47,013 nt of DNA from a virus. Taxonomy: Duplodnaviria > Heunggongvirae > Uroviricota > Caudoviricetes. This document shows, one piece after another, positions 98-47,013 of the stretch. The position numbers and the translations under genes are program-made. Under the pieces are notes generated by a model that made no database searches, had not been told where the DNA came from, and saw only the letters and a list, made by a program, of their open reading frames with translations. Numbering within the stretch: the stretch's first letter is position 1; each line of letters opens with the position of its first letter. The stretch is taken from IMG/VR virus record IMGVR_UViG_2541047907_000003; one strand, written 5' to 3'.

Positions 98-673
98 CTA
101 CGGCAGTGCTGGCCATTCAATATCCTGTGAAGTTGACGTATCAACACGGTTCAGCAATACCCGATACTTTTTCCATGCTTCCAGCAACGAGATTTCTTCC
201 TCCGTTGCAATTTCCAGATCTGCAGCATCCTGAAGCGGCGCAATATGCTCACTGGCTACCTGCATCAGGTTGTTTTTTGTTTCTTCCGCCTCCCGGATCC
301 GGAACAGTTTTTCTGCTTCCGTATCCTTCACCCAGGCTGTGCCGTTCCACTTCTGAAACTCTCCTTCCGGCGATAACCAGGTAACATTTTCCGGTAACGG
401 ACCGAGTTCAGAAATAAATAACGCGTCGCCGGAAGCCACGTCATAAACCGTTTTACCCCGATGATCTTCAACGAGATGCCACGATGCCTCATCACTGTTG
501 AAAACAGCCACGAAGCCTGCCGGAATATCTGGCGGTGCAATATAGGTACTGTTTGCTGGCAGACCTGTATGAGGCGGAATATATGCGTCACCTTCACCAA
601 TAAATTCATTAGTTCCGGCCAGCAGATTATAAATTTTTATGGTCCGTGGTTGTTCACTCATTCTGAATGCCAT
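98..673 (-). CDS. tfa: tail fiber assembly protein (lambda Tfa-like)
   Basis: 191-aa ORF; translation [24 protein letters not shown]... recognised as lambdoid Tfa; start shares 1 nt with stf stop (coupled). Confidence 0.85.
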
Positions 674-18753: not shown

Positions 18754-22434
<3,681 letters not shown>

Positions 22435-22460
<26 letters not shown>

Positions 22461-22980
22461 TCAGCAACCCCGGTATCAGTTCATCCAGCGCGGCTGCTTT
22501 GTTCATGGCTTTGATGATATCCCGTTTCAGGAAATCAACATGTCGGTTTTCCAGTTCCGGAAAACGCCGCTGCACCGACAGGGGGATCCCGTCGAGAATA
22601 CTGGCAATTTCACCTGCGATCCGCGACAGCACGAAAGTACAGAATGCGGTTTCCACCACTTCAGCTGAGTCTCTGGCATTCTTCAGTTCCTGTGCGTCGG
22701 CCTGCGCACGCGTAAGTCGATGGCGTTCGTACGCAATAGTCCCTGGCTGGAGATCTGCCTCGCTGGCCTGGCGCAGTTCTTCAACCTCCCGGCGCAGCTT
22801 TTCGTTCTCAATTTCAGCATCCCTTTCGGCATACCATTTTATAACGGCGGCAGAGTCATAAAGCACCTCATTACCCTTGCCACCGCCTCGCAGAACGGGC
22901 ATTCCCTGTTCCTGCCAGTTCTGAATGGTACGGATACTCGCACCGAAAATGTCAGCCAGCTGCTTTTTGTTGACTTCCAT
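22435..22980 (-). CDS. Nu1: terminase small subunit Nu1
   Basis: 181-aa ORF MEVNKKQLADIFGASIRTIQNWQEQGMPVLRGGGKGNEVLYDSAAVIKWYAERD (winged HTH); lambda Nu1-like. Confidence 0.95.
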
Positions 22981-22984
22981 TGTT

Positions 22985-23200
22985 CATTCCACGGACAAAA
23001 ACAGAGAAAGGAAACGACAGAGGCCAAAAAGCTCGCTTTCAGCACCTGTCGTTTCCTTTCTTTTCAGGGGGTATTTTAAATAAAAACATTAAGTTACGAC
23101 GAAGAAGAACGGAAACGCCTTAAACCGGAAAATTTTCATAAATAGCGAAAACCCGCGAGGTCGCCGCCCCGTAACCTGTCGGATCGCCGGAAAGGACCCG
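22985..23200. other. lambda-type cos site (cosB R elements, cosN cohesive end, cosQ side)
   Basis: reverse complement of about 23158-23169 reads GGGCGGCGACCT (lambda 12-nt cohesive end) followed by CGCGGGTTTTCGCTATTTATGAAAATTTTCCGG; three CGTTTCC-type R elements near 23010-23020, 23047-23057, 23110-23119 between cosN and Nu1. Confidence 0.85.
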
Positions 23201-23368
23201 AAAAATGATAATAATTATCATCTACATGTCACAACGTGCATCTACGCCATCAAACCACGTCAAATAATCAATTATGACGCAGGTATCGTATTAATTGATC
23301 TGCATCAACTTAACGTAAAAACAACTTCAGACAATACAAATCAGCGACACTGAATACGGGACAACCTC

Positions 23369-23602
23369 ATGTCAACGAAGAACAGAACCCGCAGAACAAC
23401 AACCCGCAACATCCGCTTTCCTAAACAAATGATTGAACAAATTAACATCGCTCTTGATCAAAAAGGGTCCGGGAATTTCTCAGCCTGGGTCATTGAAGCC
23501 TGCCGCCGGAGACTGTGCTCAGAAAAAAGAGTTTCTCCTGAAGCAAACAAAGAAAAGAGTGACATTACTGAATTGCTCAGAAAACAGGTCAGACCAGATT
23601 GA
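23369..23602 (+). CDS. small basic protein, possible ribbon-helix-helix DNA binder
   Basis: 77-aa ORF MSTKNRTRRTTTRNIRFPKQMIEQINIALDQKGSGNFSAWVIEACRRRL; pattern resembles Arc/MetJ-type RHH; about 200 nt from cosN. Confidence 0.4.
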   Translation: MSTKNRTRRTTTRNIRFPKQMIEQINIALDQKGSGNFSAWVIEACRRRLCSEKRVSPEANKEKSDITELLRKQVRPD

Positions 23603-23644
23603 AGCAATTTAGATAATCGTGCAGACTACGCCCCCTCATATCAC

Positions 23645-24070
23645 ATGGAAGGTTTATCTATGGATCAGGTAGTCATTTTTAAACAAATATTTGATAAAGT
23701 TCGAAACGATTTAAACTATCAATGGTTTTATTCTGAGCTAAAACGTCACAATGTCTCACATTACATTTACTATTTAGCCACAGAGAATGTTCATATTGTA
23801 TTAAAAAATGATAATACAGTGTTATTAAAGGGCCTAAAAAACATTGTGTCTGTCAAATTTTCAAAGGATAGGCATCTTATAGAAACGACCTCTAATAAGC
23901 TGAAATCCAGAGAGATCACATTTCAGGAATACAGAAGAAACCTTGCTAAAGCAGGAGTTTTTCGGTGGGTTACAAATATCCACGAACAAAAAAGATATTA
24001 CTATACCTTTGATAATTCATTACTATTTACTGAAAGCATCCAGAAAACTACACAGATCTTACCACGCTAA
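23645..24070 (+). CDS. hypothetical protein in AT-rich moron block
   Basis: 141-aa ORF in AT-rich DNA; I do not recognise the family with confidence (possibly a Qin-prophage YdfO-like protein). Confidence 0.4.
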
Positions 24071-24221
24071 ACCATAACGTCCGGCTTCTCTCACTCCTGA
24101 GCCGGACTGCATTGGTTTAATAAAAACCATCAACAATTGTGATTTAGATATTCGGAACCATTCAAATATAACAAAACCCCGTAAAAACGAGGTTTATGGA
24201 TAAATTTTATTATTGAATACA

Positions 24222-24395
24222 TCAGATTAAATTAATCTTGACATCATAGCTTTCAAGACCCGTCATTTTTTCCCGTGCGGTAAACTGAATACTGGTAACT
24301 TCTTTCCCGGTCTTTTTCTTAAGTTCAATAATTTTTTTTGTTATATATTCAGAAATATCTGCTTCTGCTTTTGTTTTTAAGTTTTCAATATTCAT
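24222..24395 (-). CDS. GnsA/GnsB-family small protein
   Basis: ORF below the 60-aa track threshold found by hand: MNIENLKTKAEADISEYITKKIIELKKKTGKEVTSIQFTAREKMTGLESYDVKINLI with AGGAAA Shine-Dalgarno; strongly resembles E. coli GnsB. Confidence 0.6.
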   Translation of the reverse strand: MNIENLKTKAEADISEYITKKIIELKKKTGKEVTSIQFTAREKMTGLESYDVKINLI

Positions 24396-24566
24396 CATTT
24401 CCTCTTTTAGTCTGTTATGACTTTCCAGTTACACAGTAAGTCGATTATATGGTGCAAACGTGTAAAAGATAAGATGAAACATCGCAATAATCAACATACG
24501 ATAGTCTAAATTTTACACAAACAGACAAAGAGAATTTTCCTGAATTATCAATGCAATAGCATCAAA

Positions 24567-24797
24567 TCAACTCAAGAGCCTTATTGCTGCTTCCAGAATT
24601 TCTTCTGAAGTAACATGTCGATCCGCGGCTACATAAATGACTTTATGATCTCCGGTCAGAGATGGAAACCCTGCGGCCATTACAGTAAGGTGTGTTTTTT
24701 CGCCATTTGGATATTCACGCATGATGGTGTTAACTCCAGTCATCGCTGGCACTACCACTGCTGGTTCAGAGTTAAAAAAAACTATGATTTTTTTCAT
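24567..24797 (-). CDS. hypothetical small protein
   Basis: track ORF 24567..24839; probable start at internal MKKIIVFFNSEPAVVVPAMTGVNTIMREYPNGEKTHL. Confidence 0.4.
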   Translation of the reverse strand: MKKIIVFFNSEPAVVVPAMTGVNTIMREYPNGEKTHLTVMAAGFPSLTGDHKVIYVAADRHVTSEEILEAAIRLLS

Positions 24798-25068
24798 GAT
24801 GTTACCGTAGTATGTGAGTATCCATCGAATAGACACCAAGCAAAAAAGCTCCCGAAGGAGCCTTCATTTTCACTTTTTTAAATCCAACGACAGACGGCTG
24901 GCATTTAAGTATTGTGAAATATTATCAAATGTAATCATCATTGATTTACAAAAGATACATTTTGCCCCGAAAGGATTCATGTCAGAAACATCAAAAGATG
25001 ATGTTCTATACTGGGAACCATGACAACACGGGCATCTAAAGTGAATATGGTTTGTAATATTGTCTACC

Positions 25069-25281
25069 TCAAAGCGCCACTACATGAACAGCGGCAGGAC
25101 CTTTAGGTCCGTTCTCAATACCAAATTCAACTTCCTGATTCTCAGTTAATGTTTTGAAATCGTTGCTCTGAATTGCTGAGAAATGGACAAACACATCTTT
25201 GCTGCCATCTTTCGGCGTGATGAAACCAAAACCTTTTTCAGGGTTAAACCATTTCACTAAACCAGTCATTTTGTTAGACAT
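25069..25281 (-). CDS. cspI: cold-shock domain protein (CspA family)
   Basis: 70-aa [56 protein letters not shown] with RNP1 motif KGFGFI and RNP2 VFVHF. Confidence 0.7.
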
Positions 25282-25643
25282 AATTATTACCTTTTGAAGA
25301 AATTAGCCCTTGGGCAGAATGGTCCGAAAAAAAATATCAGAGAGAAAAACCAACAAGGAAATCTCAAGAGGTACAAATAATAAAATTATAACAATGACTG
25401 CTTCAGATAAATTTGTAACAAACCAGAACACCATTAACGCATGATTAACCACCCATAGCAAGGATTACTTTTGTAAAGAAAAACACAGCAATGAAAGAAT
25501 AGCTTTATTTATTAATAAAACGTGTCATTCTGATTAAGACCTTTTATCTTACCCTTAAGATTTCAGGAATTTTGGCTCATGGAAGAGTCCTTTTTATTTA
25601 AATTTTACATTCCGCGATGTAAATGTTCCGATTTAATATTACC

Positions 25644-26671
<1,028 letters not shown>

Positions 26672-26749
26672 AGATATTTATGATGAGGACGCTCGTGCTT
26701 ATTGGCAGGATTTTCAATCTTAAAGGAGTACTGATGCTGCAGATAAGAC

Positions 26750-26977
26750 TCAACTTTTCTGACAATTTTCTGCTACTTCCAGGAAGACTTGCCGGACGCT
26801 CATTCTGGCTGCTGCCTCGTAAAACTCCAGCGCAGCTCCTTCAACACGGTCCATGGCGACATCCAGGCCAAAAATTTCACCGTCAAAGCGTTCTTTGTCC
26901 TGTAAGGCTACAGTTACCGTAACTTTATTCTCAAAATTACGGACTCCTTTCACAACCAGTTCATAGTCTTGAGTCAT
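26750..26977 (-). CDS. hypothetical protein between holin and endolysin (YdfR-like position)
   Basis: 75-aa ORF MTQDYELVVKGVRNFENKVTVTVALQDKERFDGEIFGLDVAMDRVEGAALEFYEAAARM filling the holin-lysozyme gap. Confidence 0.5.
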   Translation of the reverse strand: MTQDYELVVKGVRNFENKVTVTVALQDKERFDGEIFGLDVAMDRVEGAALEFYEAAARMSVRQVFLEVAENCQKS

Positions 26978-26981
26978 TGGA

Positions 26982-27197
26982 TTATTCTCCTCTCGCAGCC
27001 TTACGCCTGTCTTCTTTAATCTTGAAATAAAGATTTGTCAGATACGTCAGCAGGCCAAAAACCAGGCTACCCAGCACACCGATTGCAGCCCACTGTGACG
27101 GAGTTACTTTATCGAGTAACTGCAATGCCCAGAAACCAGCATTACCCGCCGATGTGCCATAGGCAACACCTGTTGTTAACTTATCCATTGATTTCAT
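26982..27197 (-). CDS. class II holin, P21 S-like pinholin with dual-start motif
   Basis: track ORF 26982..27272; start placed at [71 protein letters not shown] (71 aa, two TM segments, MKSM dual start). Confidence 0.85.
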
Positions 27198-27416
27198 ATC
27201 CTCACCCCGATGTACACGGATGGTGCAATATGTTTGAAAAGATCGGAGTCTACGGGGTAGTTTTGACAGCACACGTTGTTCTCAACGGCGCTAAAAAAAC
27301 ATACACATTAAAAATGTGGGTAATTATTTTGAAAGAAAGTCATATATAAAATAATAATACGAGAAATGTTTTCATATTTAGTGTACTGTATACGGCCATT
27401 TATACAGGAAAAGCCT

Positions 27417-27587
27417 ATGTCAGAACGTAAAGACTCAAAATCACGCCGTAATTATCTCGTTAAATGTTCCTGCCCAAACTGCACCCAAGAGTCAGAACAC
27501 AGTTTTTCAAGAGTACAAAAAGGTGCCCTTTTGATCTGCCCTCATTGCAACAAAGTATTCCAGACAAATCTTAAAGCTGTAGCCTGA
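27417..27587 (+). CDS. small zinc-ribbon protein
   Basis: track ORF 27366..27587; probable start MSERKDSKSRRNYLVKCSCPNCTQESEHSFSRVQKGALLICPHCNKVF with CxxC...CxxC; RBS AGGAAAAG upstream. Confidence 0.5.
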   Translation: MSERKDSKSRRNYLVKCSCPNCTQESEHSFSRVQKGALLICPHCNKVFQTNLKAVA

Positions 27588-27644
27588 TTGATTTTATTAG
27601 TAACAAGTATTTTTTATATTTTAATAATATATTTAAAACAGATA

Positions 27645-27668
27645 ATAAAAAACCCGCCTGAGCGGGTT
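27645..27668 (-). terminator. rho-independent terminator downstream of cspB
   Basis: stem AAACCCGC-TCAG-GCGGGTTT followed on minus strand by TTTTTATTAT. Confidence 0.65.
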
Positions 27669-27950
27669 TGAGATTGTGGTGCTTTTTGTGGGAGTCATCC
27701 ACTTACGCACTTTGTTTTGCGATGCCAGCAGTTAGCTTCTGCTGTGAAACTATTCATGCAGCAAACCTGCACTTCACCACAATGGTTAGCATACTTTTCC
27801 TGATTAAGATTTTGCCAAATATGCTGGCCATTGTTTCATGTATTGGACCTCCTTACTTTTTATTAAAGAGATCCAATATTCACTACTCTGTCCGTATCTC
27901 TACTCAGGCATCAGCCTTCTTCGTTATCGTATACAGACGAGCGATGAATT

Positions 27951-28166
27951 TTAATCAGTAATGATGACATTTGCTGCTGCAGGACCTTTAGCACCACTCT
28001 CTATAGAGAAGGTAACCTTTTGACCTTCAAATAAGGTTCGATAATTATCATTCTGAATCGCAGAAAAATGCACAAACACATCTTTACTACCATCAACAGG
28101 AGAAATAAAGCCGAAACCTTTATCAGCGTTAAACCATTTTACTAAACCAGTCATTTTATTTGACAT
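27951..28166 (-). CDS. cspB: cold-shock domain protein (CspA family)
   Basis: 71-aa [56 protein letters not shown]. Confidence 0.7.
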
Positions 28167-28466
28167 TCTACATTCCTTAACTTGAGCCTTTCGGCATAAA
28201 TGGTTTGCATAACAGAAACGACTTCGTACTTAATTGGAGAGACTCAAAGAAGGAATAAGTGAATAACACCTGAAATGAGAACTGCTTTAGTAAACTACTT
28301 CGTATATCGTCTGTTCTTCAAACCGACGCAATCATTAACGCATAGTTGAACATATGAAGCAATGTTTATTTTAGACATCCAGCCATCTTCAACCCCATCA
28401 AAAAACTATAGCTTTCTTCAGGAACGTGTGTATAGTGCGCCAAGTTATCAGTATTAAGGAATTTTT

Positions 28467-28679
28467 TTGTCCCGTAAAATGACAGGAATTGTCAAAACCT
28501 TTGACGGCAAAAGCGGCAAGGGTCTTATCACCCCATCCGATGGTCGTATCGATGTCCAGCTTCATGTTTCAGCGCTCAATCTCCGCGATGCAGAAGAAAT
28601 TACCACCGGATTACGCGTGGAATTTTGCCGGATAAATGGTCTGCGTGGCCCTTCAGCTGCCAATGTTTACCTTTCATGA
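28467..28679 (+). CDS. cspF: divergent cold-shock domain paralog
   Basis: 70-aa [73 protein letters not shown]; degenerate RNP motifs. Confidence 0.6.
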
Positions 28680-28733
28680 GCTATATTAAAGCTTTAATTT
28701 CAGGCCCCATCGGATCACACATGGAGAGTTTTT

Positions 28734-28823
28734 ATGAATAACCCCGTCTGTCTTGATGACTGGTTGATTGGCTTTAAAAGCTTATGCTGTACTTTGGCCG
28801 TAATAGCTCTGCTAATAATATAA
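28734..28823 (+). CDS. candidate 29-aa hydrophobic small protein
   Basis: hand-found [32 protein letters not shown] with GGAGAG about 7 nt upstream; lies between cspF and a plus-strand terminator. Confidence 0.35.
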
Positions 28824-28975
28824 TAAGCAGACTCATTGTGTTTAGGGACATTGTACTGGAAGAAAACATTTTAAACATCAGGCAAATAACCAAGTCACCA
28901 GCTAAATAATAAGTTAACAGACATGAGTCCCGGGATGAGATTCATCATTACCATTGCCCCATTTAAAGCACAAAA

Positions 28976-29005
28976 CCCGCTCATCAGCGGGTTTTCTACT
29001 TTTTC
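28976..29005 (+). terminator. rho-independent terminator
   Basis: stem AAACCCGCT-CATC-AGCGGGTTT followed by TCTACTTTTTCTT on the plus strand. Confidence 0.6.
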
Positions 29006-29100
29006 TTAACGTCGGGTATACAAAGCCCATCGTTGAAAAAAATTTATCCATATTTTTTGAAAAATGCAAACATCATGTCGCCATCTTCAGCAAAAATCAT

Positions 29101-29853
29101 TTATCTCGTCACCTTCCTCAATTGCGCTTCCGCGTATGCTTCTTCCTGCCAGCACTTTGTTACCAGTTTACCAATGACGTCCGCATACCCCTTATACCAC
29201 TGATAATCGGTCAGGTCTGGTACCAGCTTCTGGACATGACGTCGTGCCAGCGTGGTCGGTAAACGACTAAACCGGTTTCCATTACAACGCCCACAAATCT
29301 TATATACCGGTACGCCATGAAACCGGGTTCTTTTTTCATCCAGAACAATCCCTTTACCCTTACACCCTCTGCACGCTGTGCTGGCTTCGCCCTTACCATG
29401 GCAATGCTGACATAGTTCCTTCACCCATTCTTCCTTGATTACAGATTCCCCGCGTCTGTAGTGTTTCACCACTTCGCGCAATACATTATAAAATCCCGTA
29501 CCTGAACAATGCTCACAGCGAGCCTTACTTGCCGCAGACCTGGAGTAATCAGCAAAGGCAAAACTCACGAGGTAAGGAATAATCTGTAACCGGATTTCTT
29601 CACTCAATTTGTTCAATGTCGGGTTATCCAGTGCCATCGCGTAATTTAGCAGGCCTTCAATCGCAAACTGAGGGTCCTGAACACCAACTTTTGCCAGAAA
29701 TAAGGCCAACCCAAGTGGTGCTTTCGACTGCACCATCCCCTGCGCTGCCATTACATCCGTAATTGTTAAACAACCGGTGCCTGTCGCTGGAGCGTCATCG
29801 CTCAATTTTGGAGATTTTGGGGAGTAATATTTTGGTAAGGCTTCAAGGTTCAT
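29101..29853 (-). CDS. late-gene antiterminator Q (Qin QuuQ-like)
   Basis: track ORF 29101..29883; start at MNLEALPKYYSPKSPKLSDDAPATGTGCL; Cys/His zinc-binding cluster CEHCSGTG...CQHCHGKG...CRGCKGKG. Confidence 0.75.
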   Translation of the reverse strand: MNLEALPKYYSPKSPKLSDDAPATGTGCLTITDVMAAQGMVQSKAPLGLALFLAKVGVQDPQFAIEGLLNYAMALDNPTLNKLSEEIRLQIIPYLVSFAFADYSRSAASKARCEHCSGTGFYNVLREVVKHYRRGESVIKEEWVKELCQHCHGKGEASTACRGCKGKGIVLDEKRTRFHGVPVYKICGRCNGNRFSRLPTTLARRHVQKLVPDLTDYQWYKGYADVIGKLVTKCWQEEAYAEAQLRKVTR

Positions 29854-29866
29854 GCTCGTTCTCCAC

Positions 29867-30955
29867 TTACGCCAGTACGCCAATTGCCAGCGCGCGATCG
29901 ATAAAACGAAATATCAGCTCCAGTTGGGAGCCATACTTCTCTTCAAATGCCACTGTATCCGTATGCAGCTCGTTGTGATGCTTTCTGCACAAAGGCAACA
30001 CAAAGAGATCATGTGCTTTTGTTCCCATTCCGCCCTGCCCGTGACCAATCAGATGATGCGGATCGTCGGCTGGCATACCGCAGCAAGCACACGGCTGTGT
30101 CTTAACCCAACGTGTGTATTTCTCCTTAACCCAGCGGCGACGTTTAGGCAGCTTCATGAAAGATTCCGGAGACTCTGGATCAACGGTGATGCTTACCACC
30201 GTCTTTTCCTGTGGTAGTTTTTGTTGCTGGTGGGCGTAAGGCAACGGTGCAAGATTTTTTGTGCGTTGTTTCAATATGCTGGTGGCGGTCTGCTCTCCCG
30301 GTACGATGTCGCTTTCGCGGTACACCGAGCAGATTTTTTCCGCTGGTAATCCCAGCGAACGACGCGATACAGCCTCAGGTAGTGCATCCACCACCTGATT
30401 GCAGACCGCCCACCAGGATAATTCAGCCAAAGATAATTCCCGCTCCTGCGTACCGCTTATTGCGTGACGGATGACGTCAATCACCCATGCTGTCAGATTT
30501 TGTTGAGCAAGCAGCTCCAGTGATTCCGATGTCTGGTCACGCAGTTGGTTGTCGCAGTGCCAACACAACACCATTGCGCCGGTACCATAACGGTGAATGA
30601 CTGTTTCAGTGTGATGGTAATCGCCATTAGGCCACTGGCAGGATGTAACATGACGTAATAGCCAGTCAGACAATGAGCCAACGCCGCCAGCAGCACGAAT
30701 CACCCGTTCGTTACTAAAAAACGGCAGCAATGTTTTGTCTTCCGCCAGCGGCTGGCCAACGGCAGGAACGACTCCGGATGGCAGATTACGCATGCTTTTT
30801 GGTTCCGGTTCCACCAGCACTCGAGGATTATGAAATATCTGTATGGATTCACGGCCCGGCTTAAGGACCACCAGCCCAAGCTCAGGCACCAGAACAGGTC
30901 TAAGTAATACCCGCACGTTACCTCCAGATCCGTTGCTGGAAAGTGCGGGACGCAC
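29867..30955 (-). CDS. DUF968-like protein with C-terminal HNH-like Cys/His motif (YdfU-like)
   Basis: 362-aa ORF; C-terminus CACCGMPADDPHHLIGHGQGGMGTKAHDLFVLPLCRKHHNELH; true start uncertain. Confidence 0.6.
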   Translation of the reverse strand: MRPALSSNGSGGNVRVLLRPVLVPELGLVVLKPGRESIQIFHNPRVLVEPEPKSMRNLPSGVVPAVGQPLAEDKTLLPFFSNERVIRAAGGVGSLSDWLLRHVTSCQWPNGDYHHTETVIHRYGTGAMVLCWHCDNQLRDQTSESLELLAQQNLTAWVIDVIRHAISGTQERELSLAELSWWAVCNQVVDALPEAVSRRSLGLPAEKICSVYRESDIVPGEQTATSILKQRTKNLAPLPYAHQQQKLPQEKTVVSITVDPESPESFMKLPKRRRWVKEKYTRWVKTQPCACCGMPADDPHHLIGHGQGGMGTKAHDLFVLPLCRKHHNELHTDTVAFEEKYGSQLELIFRFIDRALAIGVLA

Positions 30956-31196
30956 GTGGTGGGCGTTCGGAGTAAGGCAATCTGACTGAGATTATCCAGT
31001 GACGGTAGTCGAGACTAAGGGCTTTCTTAACCTCGTATCCGCGCCTGCGGTAACACTGAATTATCCATTCAGCCTGCTCTTCAGTGCATGGAGGGTGTTG
31101 GAACCATTCAGACTTGAATGCGTGAGAATACCGCTCGTGCGTGCAGGCAAGAACGGGCGAATTATCAGAATTGTAATATTTTACGTTGCGTGCCAT
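30918..31196 (-). CDS. hypothetical protein
   Basis: 92-aa ORF MARNVKYYNSDNSPVLACTHERYSHAFKSEWFQHPPCTEEQAEWIIQCYRRRGYEV; overlaps the start of the upstream gene. Confidence 0.4.
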   Translation of the reverse strand: MARNVKYYNSDNSPVLACTHERYSHAFKSEWFQHPPCTEEQAEWIIQCYRRRGYEVKKALSLDYRHWIISVRLPYSERPPRASRTFQQRIWR

Positions 31197-31262
31197 CGGT
31201 TTTCTCCGGTGGCACGGTGTTACTCAGCGGGAGTTCAGCCCCGCGCAAGATTGTAGATGAGT

Positions 31263-31514
31263 TTATTCTTCTGCAAAAGCTGAAAAGCCTGCTTTTATTC
31301 CGATCTCTTTCAGTGCCTGTAATGAAGTGACAAACTCACCTTCGCGCAAGATAAATCTGTCTGTCACTCGACCATCCACAAAATTAATTAACGCAGCCCC
31401 ATTCTTTCGCAAACACATAATGCGGTAATGACTAACAAGATTTCCATTTTCAACGCACACAGCATAGAGGCCATCTTCACAAAAAATTTTACGCAGTTCT
31501 TCGATGTTCATCAT
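31263..31514 (-). CDS. hypothetical protein (possibly Rem-like)
   Basis: 83-aa ORF MMNIEELRKIFCEDGLYAVCVENGNLVSHYRIM...; position and length match what I recall for Qin rem, sequence identity not verified. Confidence 0.4.
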   Translation of the reverse strand: MMNIEELRKIFCEDGLYAVCVENGNLVSHYRIMCLRKNGAALINFVDGRVTDRFILREGEFVTSLQALKEIGIKAGFSAFAEE

Positions 31515-31630
31515 CAGAATCCTTCCGGATAATTAGCTCTCCCCTTTAAGGGACCATCCCTCTTATCCCTGCGCGCTACTTAAGTATTTTTGATTCTATT
31601 CCGGCACCGTCCAGAACTTCAAACGCGTTG

Positions 31631-31662
31631 AAAATAAAAACAAAAACCCGCCGAAGCGGGTT
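31631..31662 (-). terminator. rho-independent terminator downstream of hokD
   Basis: stem AACCCGC-TTCG-GCGGGTT followed on minus strand by TTTTTGTTTTTATTTT. Confidence 0.7.
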
Positions 31663-31730
31663 AAGTGCGGGTGCGTTGAGGATGCCTGACACATCAGAGG
31701 TGGCGAGGGATTTCTCCCTCGCCGGGTCTC

Positions 31731-31886
31731 TTACTCCTCAGGTTCGTAAGCTGTGAAGACAGCGACCTCCGTCTGGCCGGTTCGGATTCGTACCTCGCAG
31801 AGGTCTTTCCTCGTTACCAGTGCCGTCACTATGACGGTTAAACAGATGACGATCAGGGCGATTAACATCGCCTTTTGCTGCTTCAT
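31731..31886 (-). CDS. hokD: Hok-family type I toxin (small membrane peptide)
   Basis: hand-found 51-aa ORF MKQQKAMLIALIVICLTVIVTALVTRKDLCEVRIRTGQTEVAVFTAYEPEE, below the track threshold; a Hok sequence. Confidence 0.85.
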   Translation of the reverse strand: MKQQKAMLIALIVICLTVIVTALVTRKDLCEVRIRTGQTEVAVFTAYEPEE

Positions 31887-31957
31887 AGCCTGCTTCTCCT
31901 GTCAACGCAAAGCAGAAGTGTCACCTTCGGTGCGAAACAGAGATGTCATGCTTTGGT

Positions 31958-32245
31958 TCAGAGAATGCGTTTGACCGCCTCGCTATATACTTCCGAGCGT
32001 TCTCTTTTCCCAACAGAAATCACGAAAACGACAACTTTCTCGTCTATAACCTGGTATACAAGGCGATAGCCTGAAGACCGGAGCTTAATCTTGTAACAAT
32101 CAGGCATACCACGGAGCTTGTTTGCTTCAATCCGGGGTGACTCAAGTACTTCAACCAGCTTCTTTTTCAACTGTTCACGTACCGTCGAGCCCAGCTTTCG
32201 CCATTCCTTTAGTGCCCGCTCGTCAAAATCCAGAAAATACGCCAT
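31958..32245 (-). CDS. relE: RelE mRNA interferase toxin
   Basis: 95-aa ORF MAYFLDFDERALKEWRKLGSTVREQLKKKLVEVLESPRIEANKLRGMPDCYKIKLRSSGYRLVYQV. Confidence 0.9.
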   Translation of the reverse strand: MAYFLDFDERALKEWRKLGSTVREQLKKKLVEVLESPRIEANKLRGMPDCYKIKLRSSGYRLVYQVIDEKVVVFVISVGKRERSEVYSEAVKRIL

Positions 32246-32484
32246 CAGAGTTCATCCAGCGTCACACGTACTGGCTTAGGATTACGAAGCCGTTCTTTCA
32301 CTATCTCCACAAGTTCAGCATCTTCATCACTCAGGAGTGTCTGTTTGAACGGCAAGCGTTCATTGTCAGCGATATACTCGAGCATGAGACGAAGCGCTTC
32401 AGAAGGAGTTACACCCATTTTTTCAAGCGCGGCGTAAGAACGCGCTTTAAGTTCATCGTCAATACGCAGGTTAATGCTACCCAT
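32245..32484 (-). CDS. relB: RelB antitoxin
   Basis: 79-aa ORF MGSINLRIDDELKARSYAALEKMGVTPSEALRLMLEYIADNERLPFKQTLL; stop overlaps relE start. Confidence 0.9.
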   Translation of the reverse strand: MGSINLRIDDELKARSYAALEKMGVTPSEALRLMLEYIADNERLPFKQTLLSDEDAELVEIVKERLRNPKPVRVTLDEL

Positions 32485-32496
32485 GTCTTACACCTC

Positions 32497-32522
32497 TTGT
32501 AATTACAAATGTCATTACAAGT
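32497..32522. promoter_or_regulatory. relBE promoter/operator with TTGTAAT repeats
   Basis: TTGTAATTACAAATGTCATTACAAG just upstream of relB; palindromic TTGTAAT/ATTACAA units read directly. Confidence 0.6.
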
Positions 32523-32814
32523 ATCGCACTACAACATGCTTAGGGCAAGTCACGAAGGAAGTCAGAAAGTAGTCGTAAGAACGGTGATCACTGTCCGCTT
32601 TCTGCCAGGAGCAGCCATTGCTAAGTCCATCCTGTATTGTGCAGGTCAGCTCGTTTTTAAAGAGTCCGGCCATCATCTTACTGGTACAGACACCATATAC
32701 TTTGTGACGGTCAGGCTACATATGCACAACTCAACTTATTCATCTATTTTTTGCTTTAGCATGTCAGTGTTGCTTTCTCGTCGGCGGGTGAGCGGTGACC
32801 TGACCTGTCGATAA
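32509..32814 (+). CDS. hypothetical protein
   Basis: 101-aa ORF divergent from relB; no recognisable domain; could be non-coding. Confidence 0.25.
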   Translation: MSLQVSHYNMLRASHEGSQKVVVRTVITVRFLPGAAIAKSILYCAGQLVFKESGHHLTGTDTIYFVTVRLHMHNSTYSSIFCFSMSVLLSRRRVSGDLTCR

Positions 32815-33016
32815 AGGAACGTAACACGTTTTATGCAACACCCGCATGCGGCAGAAAATTATTGCCGAACGTTTACCCCTGTCAACAAGCTTTACTTTCT
32901 GAGGCGCGCCAGCCCGCGAGGAAAACAATCTGAACATCAAACAATTAATGACACAAGAAATACGATTAAAGATTTTTTTGTGCATGCCGATAGTGCTTTT
33001 TTAAAAGGAGAAATCT

Positions 33017-33349
33017 ATGTCTGTCACAATTCAGGGAAATACCTCAACCGTTATTTCAAACAACTCCGCCCCGGAAGGAACATCAGAAATAGCCAAAATC
33101 ACAAGACAAATTCAGGTGCTGACTGAAAAGCTTGGGAAAATCTCATCGGAAGAGGGGATGACGACACAGCAGAAAAAAGAAATGGCTGCATTGGTACAGA
33201 AGCAAATTGAAAGCCTCTGGGCTCAACTGGAGCAGTTGTTAAGGCAGCAGGCAGAGAAAAAGAATGAAGACGCGACAGTTCAGCCTGATAAAAAAGAAGA
33301 GAAAAAAGACGATACAAATACCGCTGGCACCATTGATATTTACGTCTAA
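33017..33349 (+). CDS. flxA: FlxA-like protein
   Basis: 110-aa ORF MSVTIQGNTSTVISNNSAPEGTSEIAKITRQIQVLTEKLGKISSEEGMTTQQKKEMAALVQKQIESLWAQLEQ. Confidence 0.75.
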   Translation: MSVTIQGNTSTVISNNSAPEGTSEIAKITRQIQVLTEKLGKISSEEGMTTQQKKEMAALVQKQIESLWAQLEQLLRQQAEKKNEDATVQPDKKEEKKDDTNTAGTIDIYV

Positions 33350-33429
33350 GTGACAGCCGTATTGTGGCCCTCATCGGGCCACTTTTCGCCATCAGCCTTT
33401 TCTTTAAAGACATATTATCTTTGTATCAT

Positions 33430-42206: not shown

Positions 42207-42263
42207 TTCTGGTGACGTTTGGCGGTATCAGTTTTACTCCGTGACTGCTCTGCCGCCGTTTTT
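42207..42263 (+). ncRNA. dicF: DicF small regulatory RNA
   Basis: TTTCTGGTGACGTTTGGCGGTATCAGTTTTACTCCGTGACTGCTCTGCCGCC followed by GTTTTT; matches the DicF sequence as I recall it, immediately upstream of dicB. Confidence 0.8.
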
Positions 42264-45717: not shown

Positions 45718-47013
45718 ATGAGAGAAGTTGAAATGAAATATCCGACAGGCGTGGAAAACCATGGAGGGAAATTACGTATCTGGTTTGTTTATAAAGGCGT
45801 AAGAGTCAGGGAAAACCTGGGGGTTCCTGACACAGCAAAAAACAGGCGCGTTGCAGGTGAGCTACGCGCCTCTGTTTGTTACGCAATAAAAACTGGTGTT
45901 TTCGACTATGCAAAACAGTTTCCCTCCTCACGCAATCTGGAAAAATTTGGTGAGACCCGACAAGATTTAACCATAAAAGAACTGGCTGAAAAATTTCTGG
46001 CACTGAAAGAAACTGAAGTCGCAAAAACATCACTCAACACATACCGTGCCGTCATCAAAAATATCCTGAGCATAATCGGTGAAAAAAATCTTGCCTCATC
46101 GATTAATAAAGAAAAATTACTGGAGGTTCGTAAAGAGCTACTGACTGGATACCAGAGCCCCAAAAGTAACTATATTGTTACACAACCAGGGAGATCGGCT
46201 GTAACTGTAAATAATTACATGACAAATCTTAACGCCGTGTTCCAGTTTGGTGTTGATAACGGTTACCTGGCAGATAACCCGTTTAAGGGGATCTCGCCAT
46301 TAAAGGAATCAAGAACCATTCCGGATCCTCTTTCGCGGGAGGAATTCATCCGTCTTATCGATGCGTGCAGAAATCAGCAAGCCAAAAATTTATGGTGTGT
46401 TTCTGTTTATACTGGCGTTCGCCCTGGTGAGCTGTGTGCACTTGGATGGGAGGACATAGATCTGAAAAATGGAACAATGATGATCAGGAGAAATTTAGCA
46501 AAAGACCGTTTCACGGTACCAAAAACACAGGCGGGAACCAATCGGGTCATTCATCTTATTAAGCCAGCAATCGACGCTCTCCGGAGTCAGATGACATTAA
46601 CGAGACTGAGCAAAGAGCATATCATTGATGTTCACCTCAGAGAGTATGGCAGAACAGAAAAACATAAATGCACCTTTGTTTTTCAACCTGAAGTGTCAGC
46701 GAGAGTAAAAAATTATGGTGACCATTTTACCGTTGACTCAATAAGGCAGATGTGGGACGCAGCGATAAAACGTGCCGGACTCCGCCATCGAAAATCATAT
46801 CAGTCGAGACATACTTATGCCTGCTGGTCGCTGACAGCTGGTGCTAACCCGGCATTTATAGCAAACCAGATGGGCCATGCAGATGCGCAAATGGTATTTC
46901 AGGTATACGGAAAATGGATGTCTGAAAACAATAATGCACAGGTAGCTTTGTTAAATACACAGTTAAGCGAGTTTGCCCCAACCATGCCCCATAACGAAGC
47001 AATGAAAAATTAA
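45718..47013 (+). CDS. tyrosine site-specific integrase
   Basis: 431-aa ORF ending at the last base of the window; catalytic region ...HRKSYQSRHTYACWSL... (R/H-x-x-R/Y signature); alternative start MKYPTGV at 45733. Confidence 0.9.
   Translation: MREVEMKYPTGVENHGGKLRIWFVYKGVRVRENLGVPDTAKNRRVAGELRASVCYAIKTGVFDYAKQFPSSRNLEKFGETRQDLTIKELAEKFLALKETEVAKTSLNTYRAVIKNILSIIGEKNLASSINKEKLLEVRKELLTGYQSPKSNYIVTQPGRSAVTVNNYMTNLNAVFQFGVDNGYLADNPFKGISPLKESRTIPDPLSREEFIRLIDACRNQQAKNLWCVSVYTGVRPGELCALGWEDIDLKNGTMMIRRNLAKDRFTVPKTQAGTNRVIHLIKPAIDALRSQMTLTRLSKEHIIDVHLREYGRTEKHKCTFVFQPEVSARVKNYGDHFTVDSIRQMWDAAIKRAGLRHRKSYQSRHTYACWSLTAGANPAFIANQMGHADAQMVFQVYGKWMSENNNAQVALLNTQLSEFAPTMPHNEAMKN

What the first reader, a model, noticed from the sequence alone, without database searches (positions are those of the whole stretch)
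22985..23200. Intact lambda-type cos site joining the packaging module to an unrelated right arm
The 12-nt cohesive-end sequence (reverse complement GGGCGGCGACCT) and three CGTTTCC-type elements for small-terminase binding are present next to Nu1. The DNA on the other side of cos leads into an AT-rich moron block and a P21/Qin-type lysis cassette rather than lambda-type S/R genes, marking a mosaic joint.
Basis: partly seen in the sequence, partly recalled or inferred. Interest (0 to 1): 0.4.

Follow-up and report, generated by a model that had tools for sequence, protein, structure and literature searches.

The report
Intact lambda-type cos in Qin-like prophage

Summary
Window 22985-23200 holds a complete lambda-type cos on the minus strand: cosQ, the exact 12-nt cohesive end, I2, R3, the I1 region, inverted R2 and R1, directly upstream of Nu1. 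Every defined subsite is identical to lambda. The only cosB differences from working lambda (lambda 73 A>G, 102 T>C) lie in spacers and are the majority state in 48 natural lambda-type cos sites. Nu1 is 179/181 and gpA 635/641 identical to lambda.

About 96% of the DNA beyond cos has no lambda homology and carries a Qin-type lysis cassette with a P21-family holin. But the joint is not at cos. Lambda homology continues 362 bp (95%) and then 505 bp (84%) past cosN, ending near 24090. Window 22452-33970 is colinear with the E. coli K-12 cryptic prophage Qin at 99.3%, straight through cos. The arrangement occurs in 1142 of 5426 complete E. coli genomes.

One caveat: IS629 interrupts replication gene O in this copy, so the prophage is probably unable to replicate and the cos may be idle without a helper.

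Novelty: already known. Interest: low.

The parts
23193..23199 (-). cosQ (GGGTCCT, lambda 48473-48479), the packaging-termination signal
   Evidence: Identical to lambda. Invariant in 47 of 48 natural lambda-type sites. Role from PMC4669245.
23153..23174 (-). cosN, the 22-bp nicking region. The cohesive-end 12-mer GGGCGGCGACCT is 23158-23169. Inferred nicks lie between 23170/23169 (minus strand) and 23158/23157 (plus strand).
   Evidence: Exact single match. Identical to lambda, including the CG pairs flanking both nick positions. Nick positions are inferred from the lambda paradigm (PMC4669245).
23120..23152 (-). I2 (lambda bp 18-50), the bent spacer that sets the cosN-cosB distance
   Evidence: 33/33 identical to lambda. 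Extent and role from PMC4856287.
23111..23117 (-). R3 core CGTTTCC (lambda 53-59), a small-terminase binding site; includes the T:A at bp 56
   Evidence: The bp 56 / Nu1 Glu24 specificity contact is from PMC4669245.
23079..23096 (-). I1 region, the IHF-site candidates between R3 and R2 (lambda 74-91)
   Evidence: Matches to WATCAANNNNTTR with 1-2 mismatches. Sequence identical to lambda over lambda 74-101. IHF binding itself was not tested.
23050..23056 (+). R2 core (CGTTTCC on the plus strand, inverted relative to R3 and R1; lambda 114-120)
   Evidence: The 16-mer is identical to R1's.
23010..23016 (-). R1 core CGTTTCC (lambda reference 155-161)
   Evidence: Invariant in the natural sample.
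22435..22980 (-). Nu1, the small terminase subunit (181 aa)
   Evidence: 179/181 identical to lambda; residues 1-82 identical.
20535..22460 (-). A, the large terminase subunit (641 aa; endonuclease and packaging ATPase)
   Evidence: 635/641 identical to lambda. Five substitutions are private to the window.
23170..23531 (.). Lambda-homologous DNA beyond cos (lambda 48502-48141, 95.0%); includes most of a YnfO/DUF3950 gene at 23369-23602 (+)
23586..24089 (.). Second, weaker lambda-homologous block (84.4%, lambda 47527-47023, lambdap78), carrying the YdfO/DUF1398 gene at 23645-24070 (+). The true lambda/Qin divergence point is at its far end, about 24090.
24222..25281 (-). AT-rich accessory genes on the late-transcript strand: gnsB (24222-24398), ynfN (within 24567-24839), cspI (25069-25281) with its cspA-type 5'UTR
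25644..27197 (-). Qin-type lysis cassette: Rz (25644-26141) with embedded Rz1 (25694-25948), lysozyme (26138-26671), frameshifted ydfR (26750-26977), P21-family holin (26982-27197)
38047..39356 (.). IS629 inserted in replication gene O, with loss of 46 codons. Not part of cos, but it decides whether this cos can be used autonomously.

Best explanation
Window 22985-23200 is the cos site of a Qin-family lambdoid prophage with lambda packaging specificity.

Inferred mechanism, from the lambda paradigm:
- After excision and rolling-circle replication, dimers of the Nu1 winged-helix domain dock on R3 and R2, which are brought face to face by an IHF-assisted bend at I1. R1 also contributes.
- This anchors gpA at the distance set by I2, so that gpA nicks cosN 12 nt apart and leaves 5'-GGGCGGCGACCT ends.
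- The Nu1-proximal end (window 23169 downward) enters the prohead first. Packaging runs through the head and tail genes, round the genome, and ends at the next cos, where cosQ (23193-23199) is needed for the second nick.
- cos also lies inside the Q-dependent late transcript, which runs from the lysis cassette across cos into Nu1.

What is shown:
- All subsites, their spacing and their orientation are identical to working lambda.
- Nu1's N-terminal 82 residues are identical to lambda's, and gpA is 99% identical.
- cos is not a mosaic joint. It sits within a block colinear with K-12 Qin at 99.3%, and lambda homology persists for about 0.9 kb beyond it.

Caveat: in this copy replication gene O is broken by IS629 plus a 46-codon deletion. 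The prophage probably cannot make concatemers on its own, so its cos is most likely competent but idle unless replication is supplied in trans or the arm is rescued by recombination.
For: Subsites:
- Exact 12-mer, single occurrence.
- Base-by-base alignments to DE3, the lambda reference, K-12 Qin and PhiR42_1. cosQ, cosN, I2, R3, R2 and R1 are all identical to lambda.
- The only cosB differences from working lambda are lambda 73 A>G and 102 T>C, both between elements.

The apparent 1-bp deletion against NC_001416 (GAGGC>GAGC) is shared by three other lambda records: DE3, PV340536.1 and KT232076.1.

Natural variation:
- R-core spacing of 61/40 is found in 44 of 45 natural sites, as in the window.
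- In 48 natural lambda-type cos sites, G73 (35/48), C102 (34/48) and C48486 (45/48) are the majority states.
- In the same sample cosQ and the R1 core are essentially invariant (the printed coordinates are 1 too high).
- The window's combined haplotype is the commonest, 11 of 34.

Proteins and arm integrity:
- Nu1 179/181 with Glu24 present, opposite the T:A at bp 56 (PMC4669245).
- gpA 635/641.
- All morphogenetic ORFs from Nu1 to Tfa are full length.

Mosaic map:
- Lambda 1-18002 matches window 23169-5173 at 97.2%. Beyond cos only 23170-23531 and 23586-24089 match.
- Window 22452-33970 is colinear with Qin at 99.3%.
- The arrangement is in 1142 of 5426 genomes.

Replication gene O::IS629.
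Against: - No cleavage or virion-end data exist for this sequence; function is inferred from identity to lambda.
- No phage record is 100% identical over the 225 bp. The best are 223/225.
- gpA has five private substitutions, two of them non-conservative (R381W, H384Y; 0 of 32 natural contigs have them). Their effect is unknown.
- The claim that the prophage cannot replicate rests only on the disrupted O reading frame.
- I found no paper describing PhiR42_1, so its status as an active phage rests only on the GenBank host field.
Confidence: 0.86

Rival explanations
1. One reading: cos itself is the recombination joint where a lambda packaging module was joined to an unrelated right arm.
For: - 96.4% of the window beyond cos has no lambda homology.
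- Among 122 natural cos sites, homology to the window ends within about 130 bp past cosN in 61 (29 at 23193-23215 and 32 at 23216-23300). It ends inside I2 on the other side in 43 of 93.
- All four combinations of the left-of-cosQ and cosB haplotypes exist.
- Double-strand cuts at cos stimulate recombination (PMC3945230).
Against: - Window-to-lambda homology continues 362 bp at 95% and then 505 bp at 84% past cosN. The break is near 24090.
- The window is colinear with Qin at 99.3% across cos.
- The same layout is in 1142 genomes and in K-12 itself.
Confidence: 0.08
2. The prophage is fully active, and this cos is used routinely in autonomous lytic growth. On this reading the IS629 in O is tolerated or bypassed.
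For: - Complete and intact int, xis, Q, holin, lysozyme, Rz/Rz1 and the whole Nu1-to-Tfa series.
- No significant excess of amino-acid-changing private mutations (68:132 against 117:321, P=0.07) and an ordinary mutation spectrum.
- The near-identical PhiR42_1 is deposited as a phage with a propagation host.
Against: - O is split into residues 1-175 and 222-321 by a 1310-bp IS629, with 46 codons missing.
- PhiR42_1 and the genome examined have an intact O gene (966 bp).
- Established lambda biology (not checked against a paper here): monomeric circles are poor packaging substrates.
Confidence: 0.1
3. The site is a decayed, non-functional relic, like the cos next to the truncated nohA in K-12 Qin.
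For: - The prophage carries IS629 in O, a frameshifted ydfR and private gpA substitutions.
- K-12 Qin shows that such cos sites can persist in dead prophages.
Against: - No substitution in any defined subsite.
- The window carries the commonest natural haplotype.
- The window has the canonical R3, unlike K-12 Qin (G54A).
- Terminase and all structural genes are intact.
Confidence: 0.03

Closest known systems
Bacteriophage lambda cos (cosQ-cosN-I2-cosB; NC_001416, and the cos feature annotated in DE3, EU078592)
   Same: - The 12-nt end, cosQ, I2 and the R3/R2/R1 cores are identical, with the same orientation and spacing.
- The same adjacent Nu1 (99%) and A (99%).
- Homology extends 18 kb leftward at 97.2% and about 0.9 kb rightward.
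   Different: - Two spacer substitutions (lambda 73, 102) and about eight substitutions left of cosQ. At all but one of these (lambda 48471) lambda holds the minority state.
- The rest of the right arm is unrelated: the lysis cassette, Q, replication, immunity and integration genes.
cos/nohA region of the E. coli K-12 cryptic prophage Qin (NC_000913.3, 1632277-1652745)
   Same: - 99.3% colinear identity from inside Nu1/nohA through cos, ynfO, ydfO, gnsB, ynfN, cspI, rzpQ, rrrQ, ydfR, essQ, cspB/F, Q and on to ydfW.
- tfaQ, dicF-dicB-ydfD and intQ also match at 98-99%.
   Different: - K-12 Qin lacks window ~842-22451 (the end of Nu1, A, and all head and tail genes), and nohA is truncated.
- Its cosB carries G54A in R3 plus three other changes that the window lacks.
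- The window has IS629 in O; K-12 has IS2 near intQ.
Escherichia phage PhiR42_1 (PV340562.1) and relatives HannyBb, Tritos, mEp460
   Same: The same overall genome plan: a lambda-type left arm, this cos, and a Qin-type right arm. Identity is 99.1% over window 22400-24600 and 98.6% over 82% of the right arm.
   Different: - PhiR42_1 has an intact O and the Qin-type R3 variant.
- It has different cargo between the DUF977 gene (just downstream of O) and hok/sok.
Phage 21 cos and the DLP12 cos/nohD region
   Same: According to PMC4669245, phage 21 has the same cosQ and cosN and the same three-R-plus-IHF architecture. The window shares the P21-family holin type. DLP12 shares 3.3 kb with lambda across cos (PMC3945230).
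   Different: Phage 21 has a different cosB and Nu1 specificity (G:C at bp 56). The window has lambda's T:A and a lambda Nu1 recognition region. No phage 21 or DLP12 sequence was compared directly.

Membership tests
Lambda-type cos with lambda packaging specificity | 12-nt 5' cohesive-end sequence GGGCGGCGACCT, with conserved CG pairs flanking both nick positions | tested here: met
   Exact single match at 23158-23169. The flanking ...TTACG|...|CGCGG is identical to lambda.
Lambda-type cos with lambda packaging specificity | 7-bp cosQ (GGGTCCT), with 23 bp between it and the top-strand nick | tested here: met
   Window 23193-23199 corresponds to lambda 48473-48479. Invariant in 47 of 48 natural sites.
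Lambda-type cos with lambda packaging specificity | I2 segment (bp 18-50) and unaltered cosN-cosB spacing | tested here: met
   33/33 identical, with no indel between cosN and R3. Definition from PMC4856287.
Lambda-type cos with lambda packaging specificity | Three R sequences, with R2 inverted relative to R3 and R1, at lambda spacing | tested here: met
   Cores at lambda 53-59, 114-120 (inverted) and 155-161. Spacing 61/40, as in 44 of 45 natural sites and in three modern lambda records.
Lambda-type cos with lambda packaging specificity | IHF site I1 between R3 and R2 | tested here: inconclusive
   Sequence identical to lambda over lambda 74-101, with consensus matches carrying 1-2 mismatches. 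Protein binding cannot be tested here. A>G at lambda 73 abuts the site but is the majority natural state.
Lambda-type cos with lambda packaging specificity | Lambda (not 21) specificity determinants: T:A at bp 56 of R3 and Glu24 in the Nu1 recognition helix | tested here: met
   T at lambda 56. Nu1 residues 1-82 identical to lambda, including E24. Determinants from PMC4669245.
Lambda-type cos with lambda packaging specificity | Cognate terminase genes Nu1 and A immediately downstream | tested here: met
   Nu1 at 22435-22980 and A at 20535-22460, 99% identical to lambda.
Lambda-type cos with lambda packaging specificity | Actual staggered cleavage by terminase, and virion DNA ends at this site | not testable with these tools
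   Needs an in vitro cleavage assay or virion-end sequencing.
Qin-family lambdoid prophage | Colinear gene order nohA/Nu1 - cos - ynfO - ydfO - gnsB - ynfN - cspI - rzpQ - rrrQ - ydfR - essQ - cspB/F - Q - ydfU - rem - hokD - relBE - flxA, plus dicF/dicB and intQ | tested here: met
   99.3% over 11.5 kb, plus 98-99% blocks at tfaQ, dicF-ydfE and intQ. DicF, sok and cspA-type UTRs found by Rfam.
P21-type (pinholin / SAR-endolysin) lysis cassette | Holin of the P21 S family | tested here: met
   71-aa holin matches PF04971 'Bacteriophage P21 holin S', E 4e-34, full length.
P21-type (pinholin / SAR-endolysin) lysis cassette | Endolysin with an N-terminal signal-anchor-release domain and an E-x8-D-x5-T triad, orthologous to R21 | tested here: inconclusive
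   The 177-aa PF00959 lysozyme has a Gly/Ala-rich hydrophobic N-terminus (residues 8-23) and E35-x8-D44-x5-T50, by direct reading. The motif definition is from my own knowledge. No phage 21 sequence was compared.
Mosaic joint located at cos | Homology to the reference phage ends at or within cos | tested here: not met
   Homology to lambda ends at 23531, and then at 24089. There is no break at all against Qin.

The most novel reading that the evidence does not exclude
A sequence-perfect lambda-specificity cos, with a complete terminase, head and tail arm, persists in a prophage that has just lost replication (O::IS629). It could act as a helper-dependent packaging substrate. It could also act as a donor of a working packaging and morphogenesis arm to incoming lambdoid phages through cos-stimulated recombination. 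On this reading the element is a standing reservoir for mosaic formation, not a dead end. The four-gamete pattern across cosQ-cosN-I2 would then be the population-level trace of that process.
Probability: 0.2. Interest if true: 0.3.

Novelty: already known. Interest (0 to 1): 0.08.

Why it matters
It matters little as a discovery. Lambda cos is one of the best-characterised DNA sites in biology, and its presence next to a Qin-type right arm is the normal layout of a prophage family found in about a fifth of complete E. coli genomes, including K-12.

The practical value lies in annotation:
- The window is an undeleted relative of K-12's Qin, and shows what that cryptic prophage lost.
- The true lambda/Qin divergence point is near 24090, not at cos.
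- This particular copy is probably crippled by IS629 in its replication gene, so an intact cos should not be read as an active phage.

Tried and rejected
- CGTTTCC enrichment across the window: not significant (7 found, 7.3 expected). Only the local cluster and its arrangement carry weight.
- A paper on PhiR42_1 or the ECOR 'PhiR' phages: none in the held library.
- Papers on the Qin cos/nohA, or on lambda terminase cutting chromosomal cos sites: searches returned only name collisions or irrelevant reviews. My recollection of a 1992 report on lambda terminase cutting the K-12 chromosome is unverified, and I did not use it.
- The same O::IS629 junction in 5426 complete E. coli genomes: not found. 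The two apparent full-length hits are different arrangements.
- A 100% identical cos in the phage collection: none; the best is 223/225.
- Whether the window lineage shows relaxed selection or a mutagenic spectrum, prompted by five private gpA changes: rejected. Private-difference counts are 233, 256 and 247 with similar spectra. N:S is 68:132 against 117:321, P=0.07, driven largely by FI.
- The apparent 1-bp deletion between R2 and R1: rejected as a defect. It is peculiar to the NC_001416 record.
- The PICI or satellite-cos reading: rejected, because the site abuts full-length Nu1 and A within a complete late arm.
- One paper reading failed on a two-letter search term.

Full report
OBSERVATION

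The window's minus strand at 23158-23169 reads GGGCGGCGACCT, a single exact occurrence (1 match allowing one mismatch, 0.07 expected by chance). Reading leftward on the plus strand from there, the sequence runs into the ATG of a 181-aa ORF at 22980.

Three CGTTTCC cores lie at 23111-23117 (-), 23050-23056 (+) and 23010-23016 (-). The 7-mer is not enriched in the window as a whole (7 found, 7.3 expected). The weight therefore rests on the cluster (three in 108 bp, roughly 3e-4 after correcting for the number of windows) and on the order and orientation of the copies.

COMPARISON WITH LAMBDA

I aligned the minus strand with four sequences: DE3 (a lambda derivative whose record annotates the cos site), the lambda reference NC_001416, K-12 Qin, and phage PhiR42_1. 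The mapping is lambda n = window 23170-n for n up to 137, and 23171-n beyond that.

- Identical to lambda: cosQ, the 22-bp cosN region with its flanking CG pairs, I2 (bp 18-50), R3 (core 53-59), the stretch 74-101 that holds the IHF-site candidates, R2 (114-120, inverted) and R1 (155-161).
- Substitutions: within lambda 1-190 there are only two, A73G and T102C, both between elements.
- Apparent deletion: the 1-bp deletion against NC_001416 (GAGGC>GAGC at 138/139) is not a defect. DE3 and two independent lambda records (PV340536.1, KT232076.1) have the window's sequence.
- No viral contig out of 126 segments has GAGGC. The R-core spacing of 61/40 seen in the window is found in 44 of 45 natural sites.

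The subsite definitions and roles come from PMC4669245 and PMC4856287:
- cosB holds R3, R2 and R1, with the IHF site I1 between R3 and R2.
- I2 spans about bp 18-50, and both its spacing and its sequence matter.
- cosQ is a conserved 7-bp termination signal.
- Glu24 of Nu1 contacts the T:A at bp 56 of R3, where phage 21 has G:C.

The window has T at bp 56. Its Nu1 is 179/181 identical to lambda, with residues 1-82 unchanged. gpA is 635/641 identical.

NATURAL VARIATION

A scan of IMG/VR for the cosN core returned 120 contigs with 126 cos segments. Of these, 48 have a lambda-type cosB (the coordinates printed are one too high).

- In the 48 sites, G73 (35/48), C102 (34/48) and C at lambda 48486 (45/48) are the majority states. 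Lambda is the minority variant.
- The patch of differences left of cosQ (lambda 48427-48467) is also the majority haplotype.
- cosQ and the R1 core are essentially invariant. The R3 core varies in about a fifth of sites (C53T, G54A), and the window has the canonical form.
- The window's combined haplotype is the commonest, 11 of 34.
- No deposited phage is identical over all 225 bp. The closest are Kati and PhiR30_1 at 223/225.

WHAT LIES ON THE OTHER SIDE

GC falls from 0.54-0.60 (18-23 kb) to 0.35-0.39 (23-26 kb). The genes there are as follows:
- YnfO/DUF3950 (23369-23602, +)
- YdfO/DUF1398 (23645-24070, +)
- GnsB
- YnfN
- CspI
- Rz/Rz1 (DUF2514)
- a PF00959 lysozyme of 177 aa
- YdfR
- a 71-aa holin that matches PF04971 'Bacteriophage P21 holin S'

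WHERE THE JOINT REALLY IS

Against the whole lambda genome:
- Window 5173-23169 matches lambda 18002-1 at 97.2%.
- Beyond cos only two blocks match: 23170-23531 (95.0%, lambda 48502-48141) and 23586-24089 (84.4%, lambdap78).
- Those two blocks amount to 3.6% of the right side.
- The divergence point is therefore about 920 bp past cosN.

Against K-12 MG1655:
- Window 22452-33970 is one colinear block at 99.3% with the cryptic prophage Qin. It runs from inside nohA (the truncated Nu1) through cos to beyond flxA.
- Further 98-99% blocks lie at tfaQ, dicF-dicB-ydfE and intQ.
- K-12 Qin simply lacks window ~842-22451. The window is an undeleted relative of Qin.

The Nu1-cos-ynfO...rzpQ arrangement is present at 80% coverage or more in 1142 of 5426 complete E. 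coli genomes. It is also in deposited phages such as PhiR42_1, with further relatives of the right arm in HannyBb, Tritos and mEp460. cos is thus interior to a conserved block, not a junction.

- In the sample of 122 natural cos sites, homology to the window ends at 23193-23215 in 29, and at 23216-23300 in 32.
- On the other side, homology ends inside I2 in 43 of 93.
- The roughly 80-bp cosQ-cosN-I2 core is therefore a conserved island, and flanks are frequently exchanged around it.
- Lambda, K-12 Qin, PhiR42_1 and the window show all four combinations of the left-of-cosQ haplotype and the cosB haplotype.
- The natural sample shows the same pattern. This implies exchange within the roughly 90 bp around cosN.
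- That agrees with experimental evidence that cuts at cos stimulate recombination between lambda and defective prophages (PMC3945230).

IS THIS COS LIKELY TO BE USED?

Intact genes:
- The late arm is complete. ORFs of the expected lengths run from Nu1 through A, W, B, C/Nu3, D, E, FI, FII, Z, U, V, G, T, H, M, L, K, I, J, Lom and Stf to Tfa.
- int (431 aa), xis, the exonuclease, a DicA-type repressor, a Cro-like protein, Q, the holin, the lysozyme and Rz/Rz1 are also intact.

The replication gene is broken:
- A 1310-bp element with 25-bp inverted repeats lies at 38047-39356.
- It is 99.5% identical to an annotated IS629 and contains the IS3-type frameshift pseudoknot.
- It splits the replication gene O into residues 1-175 and 222-321. 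Forty-six codons are missing and there is no target duplication.
- The insertion lies immediately beside the iteron array at 39403-39533.

The insertion appears to be recent:
- The junction is in none of the 5426 complete genomes.
- The lineage shows no significant decay signal.

I conclude that the cos is competent by sequence, but the prophage is probably unable to replicate. The cos is then idle unless O is supplied or the arm is rescued by recombination. This step is inference from the broken reading frame.

MECHANISM

This part is inferred from the lambda paradigm as described in PMC4669245 and PMC4856287.
- Nu1 dimers bind R3 and R2 across an IHF-bent I1, and this positions gpA on cosN.
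- gpA makes staggered nicks that give 12-nt 5' ends.
- The terminase-bound Nu1-side end docks on the portal, and DNA is translocated.
- At the next cos, cosQ and cosN direct the terminating cut.

In window terms, packaging starts at 23169 and proceeds toward position 1, and the last DNA packaged is 23199-23170.

VERDICT

This is a genuine, sequence-intact lambda-specificity cos. It is already known as a kind and as an arrangement. The 'mosaic joint at cos' reading is not supported for this window.

Noticed in passing
window 38047-39356 (O fragments at 39862-39357 and 38043-37744; iterons at 39403-39533): IS629 (1310 bp, 99.5% identical to an annotated copy) interrupts replication gene O. 46 codons are lost and there is no target-site duplication. 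The junction is absent from all 5426 complete E. coli genomes searched.
   Followed up: yes
window 26750-26977 (deletions near 26770/26769 and 26759/26758): ydfR (DUF1327), between the holin and the lysozyme, carries two 1-bp deletions in A5 runs relative to K-12 Qin and PhiR42_1. This truncates it to 75 aa from 103. It could be a real pseudogene or a homopolymer sequencing error.
   Followed up: partly
lambda reference NC_001416 positions 138/139 (corresponds to window ~23032): The reference lambda record has an extra G (GAGGC) between R2 and R1. It is absent from DE3, PV340536.1, KT232076.1, K-12 Qin, the window and all 126 IMG/VR cos segments. The reference numbering of R1 and Nu1 is therefore +1 relative to every other sequence examined.
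   Followed up: yes
window 842-22451, against K-12 Qin (L003 5054-5840): The window is an undeleted relative of K-12's cryptic prophage Qin. K-12 lacks about 21.6 kb (the 3' end of Nu1, A, and all head and tail genes up to stf), which explains the truncated nohA abutting stfQ.
   Followed up: yes
window 35392-37294 (ORF 35475-36962, minus strand): An AT-rich segment absent from both K-12 Qin and PhiR42_1 encodes a 495-aa P-loop ATPase of the Sll1717 family (NCBIfam NF047389, E 4e-74). It has no Pfam hit and only a weak PADLOC hit (PDC-M28C). It lies between a sok RNA match (35205-35371, presumably a hok/sok module) and the DUF977/Ren-like gene. It may be an accessory or defence cargo gene.
   Followed up: partly
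window 33786-35126 (minus strand): A 446-aa ISNCY-family transposase ORF (NCBIfam, E 4e-139). The homologous region in PhiR42_1 is annotated as two shorter CDSs.
   Followed up: partly
window 20535-22460 (gpA codons 228, 245, 263, 381, 384): Five gpA substitutions are private to the window: S228N, E245K, T263M, R381W and H384Y. None of 32 viral contigs has W381 or Y384. The lineage-wide mutation load and N:S ratio are not significantly unusual (P=0.07).
   Followed up: yes
window 23203-23245 (lambda 48427-48467, left of cosQ): A cluster of seven substitutions forms two haplotypes. Lambda and K-12 Qin share one; the window, PhiR42_1 and most natural contigs share the other. Combined with the cosB markers, all four haplotype combinations occur, which indicates exchange across cosN.
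   Followed up: yes
IMG/VR loci L006, L013, L016, L033, L045, L083, L104, L113, L116: Nine of 120 viral contigs carry two cos cores in convergent orientation, 524-868 bp apart, within 56-72-nt inverted repeats. In L013, the one contig examined, they lie next to lambda E-like and D-like capsid genes. They fall into at least two sequence families. Their nature (satellite, junction of two elements, or something else) was not resolved.
   Followed up: partly
window 132-330 (-), 25042-25427 (-), 27935-28327 (-), 35205-35371 (-), 42207-42258 (+): Rfam gathering-threshold matches: IS009 sRNA overlapping the tfa ORF (98-673), cspA-type thermoregulator 5'UTRs upstream of cspI and cspB, the sok antitoxin RNA, and DicF. 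There are no tRNA genes in the window.
   Followed up: no
window 1 and 47013: The window ends exactly at the stop codon of a full-length integrase (45718-47013) and starts 97 bp beyond the tfa stop. It is therefore a gene-bounded slice of a prophage. It lacks the pin-side end (pinQ, ydfK) and both att sites.
   Followed up: partly
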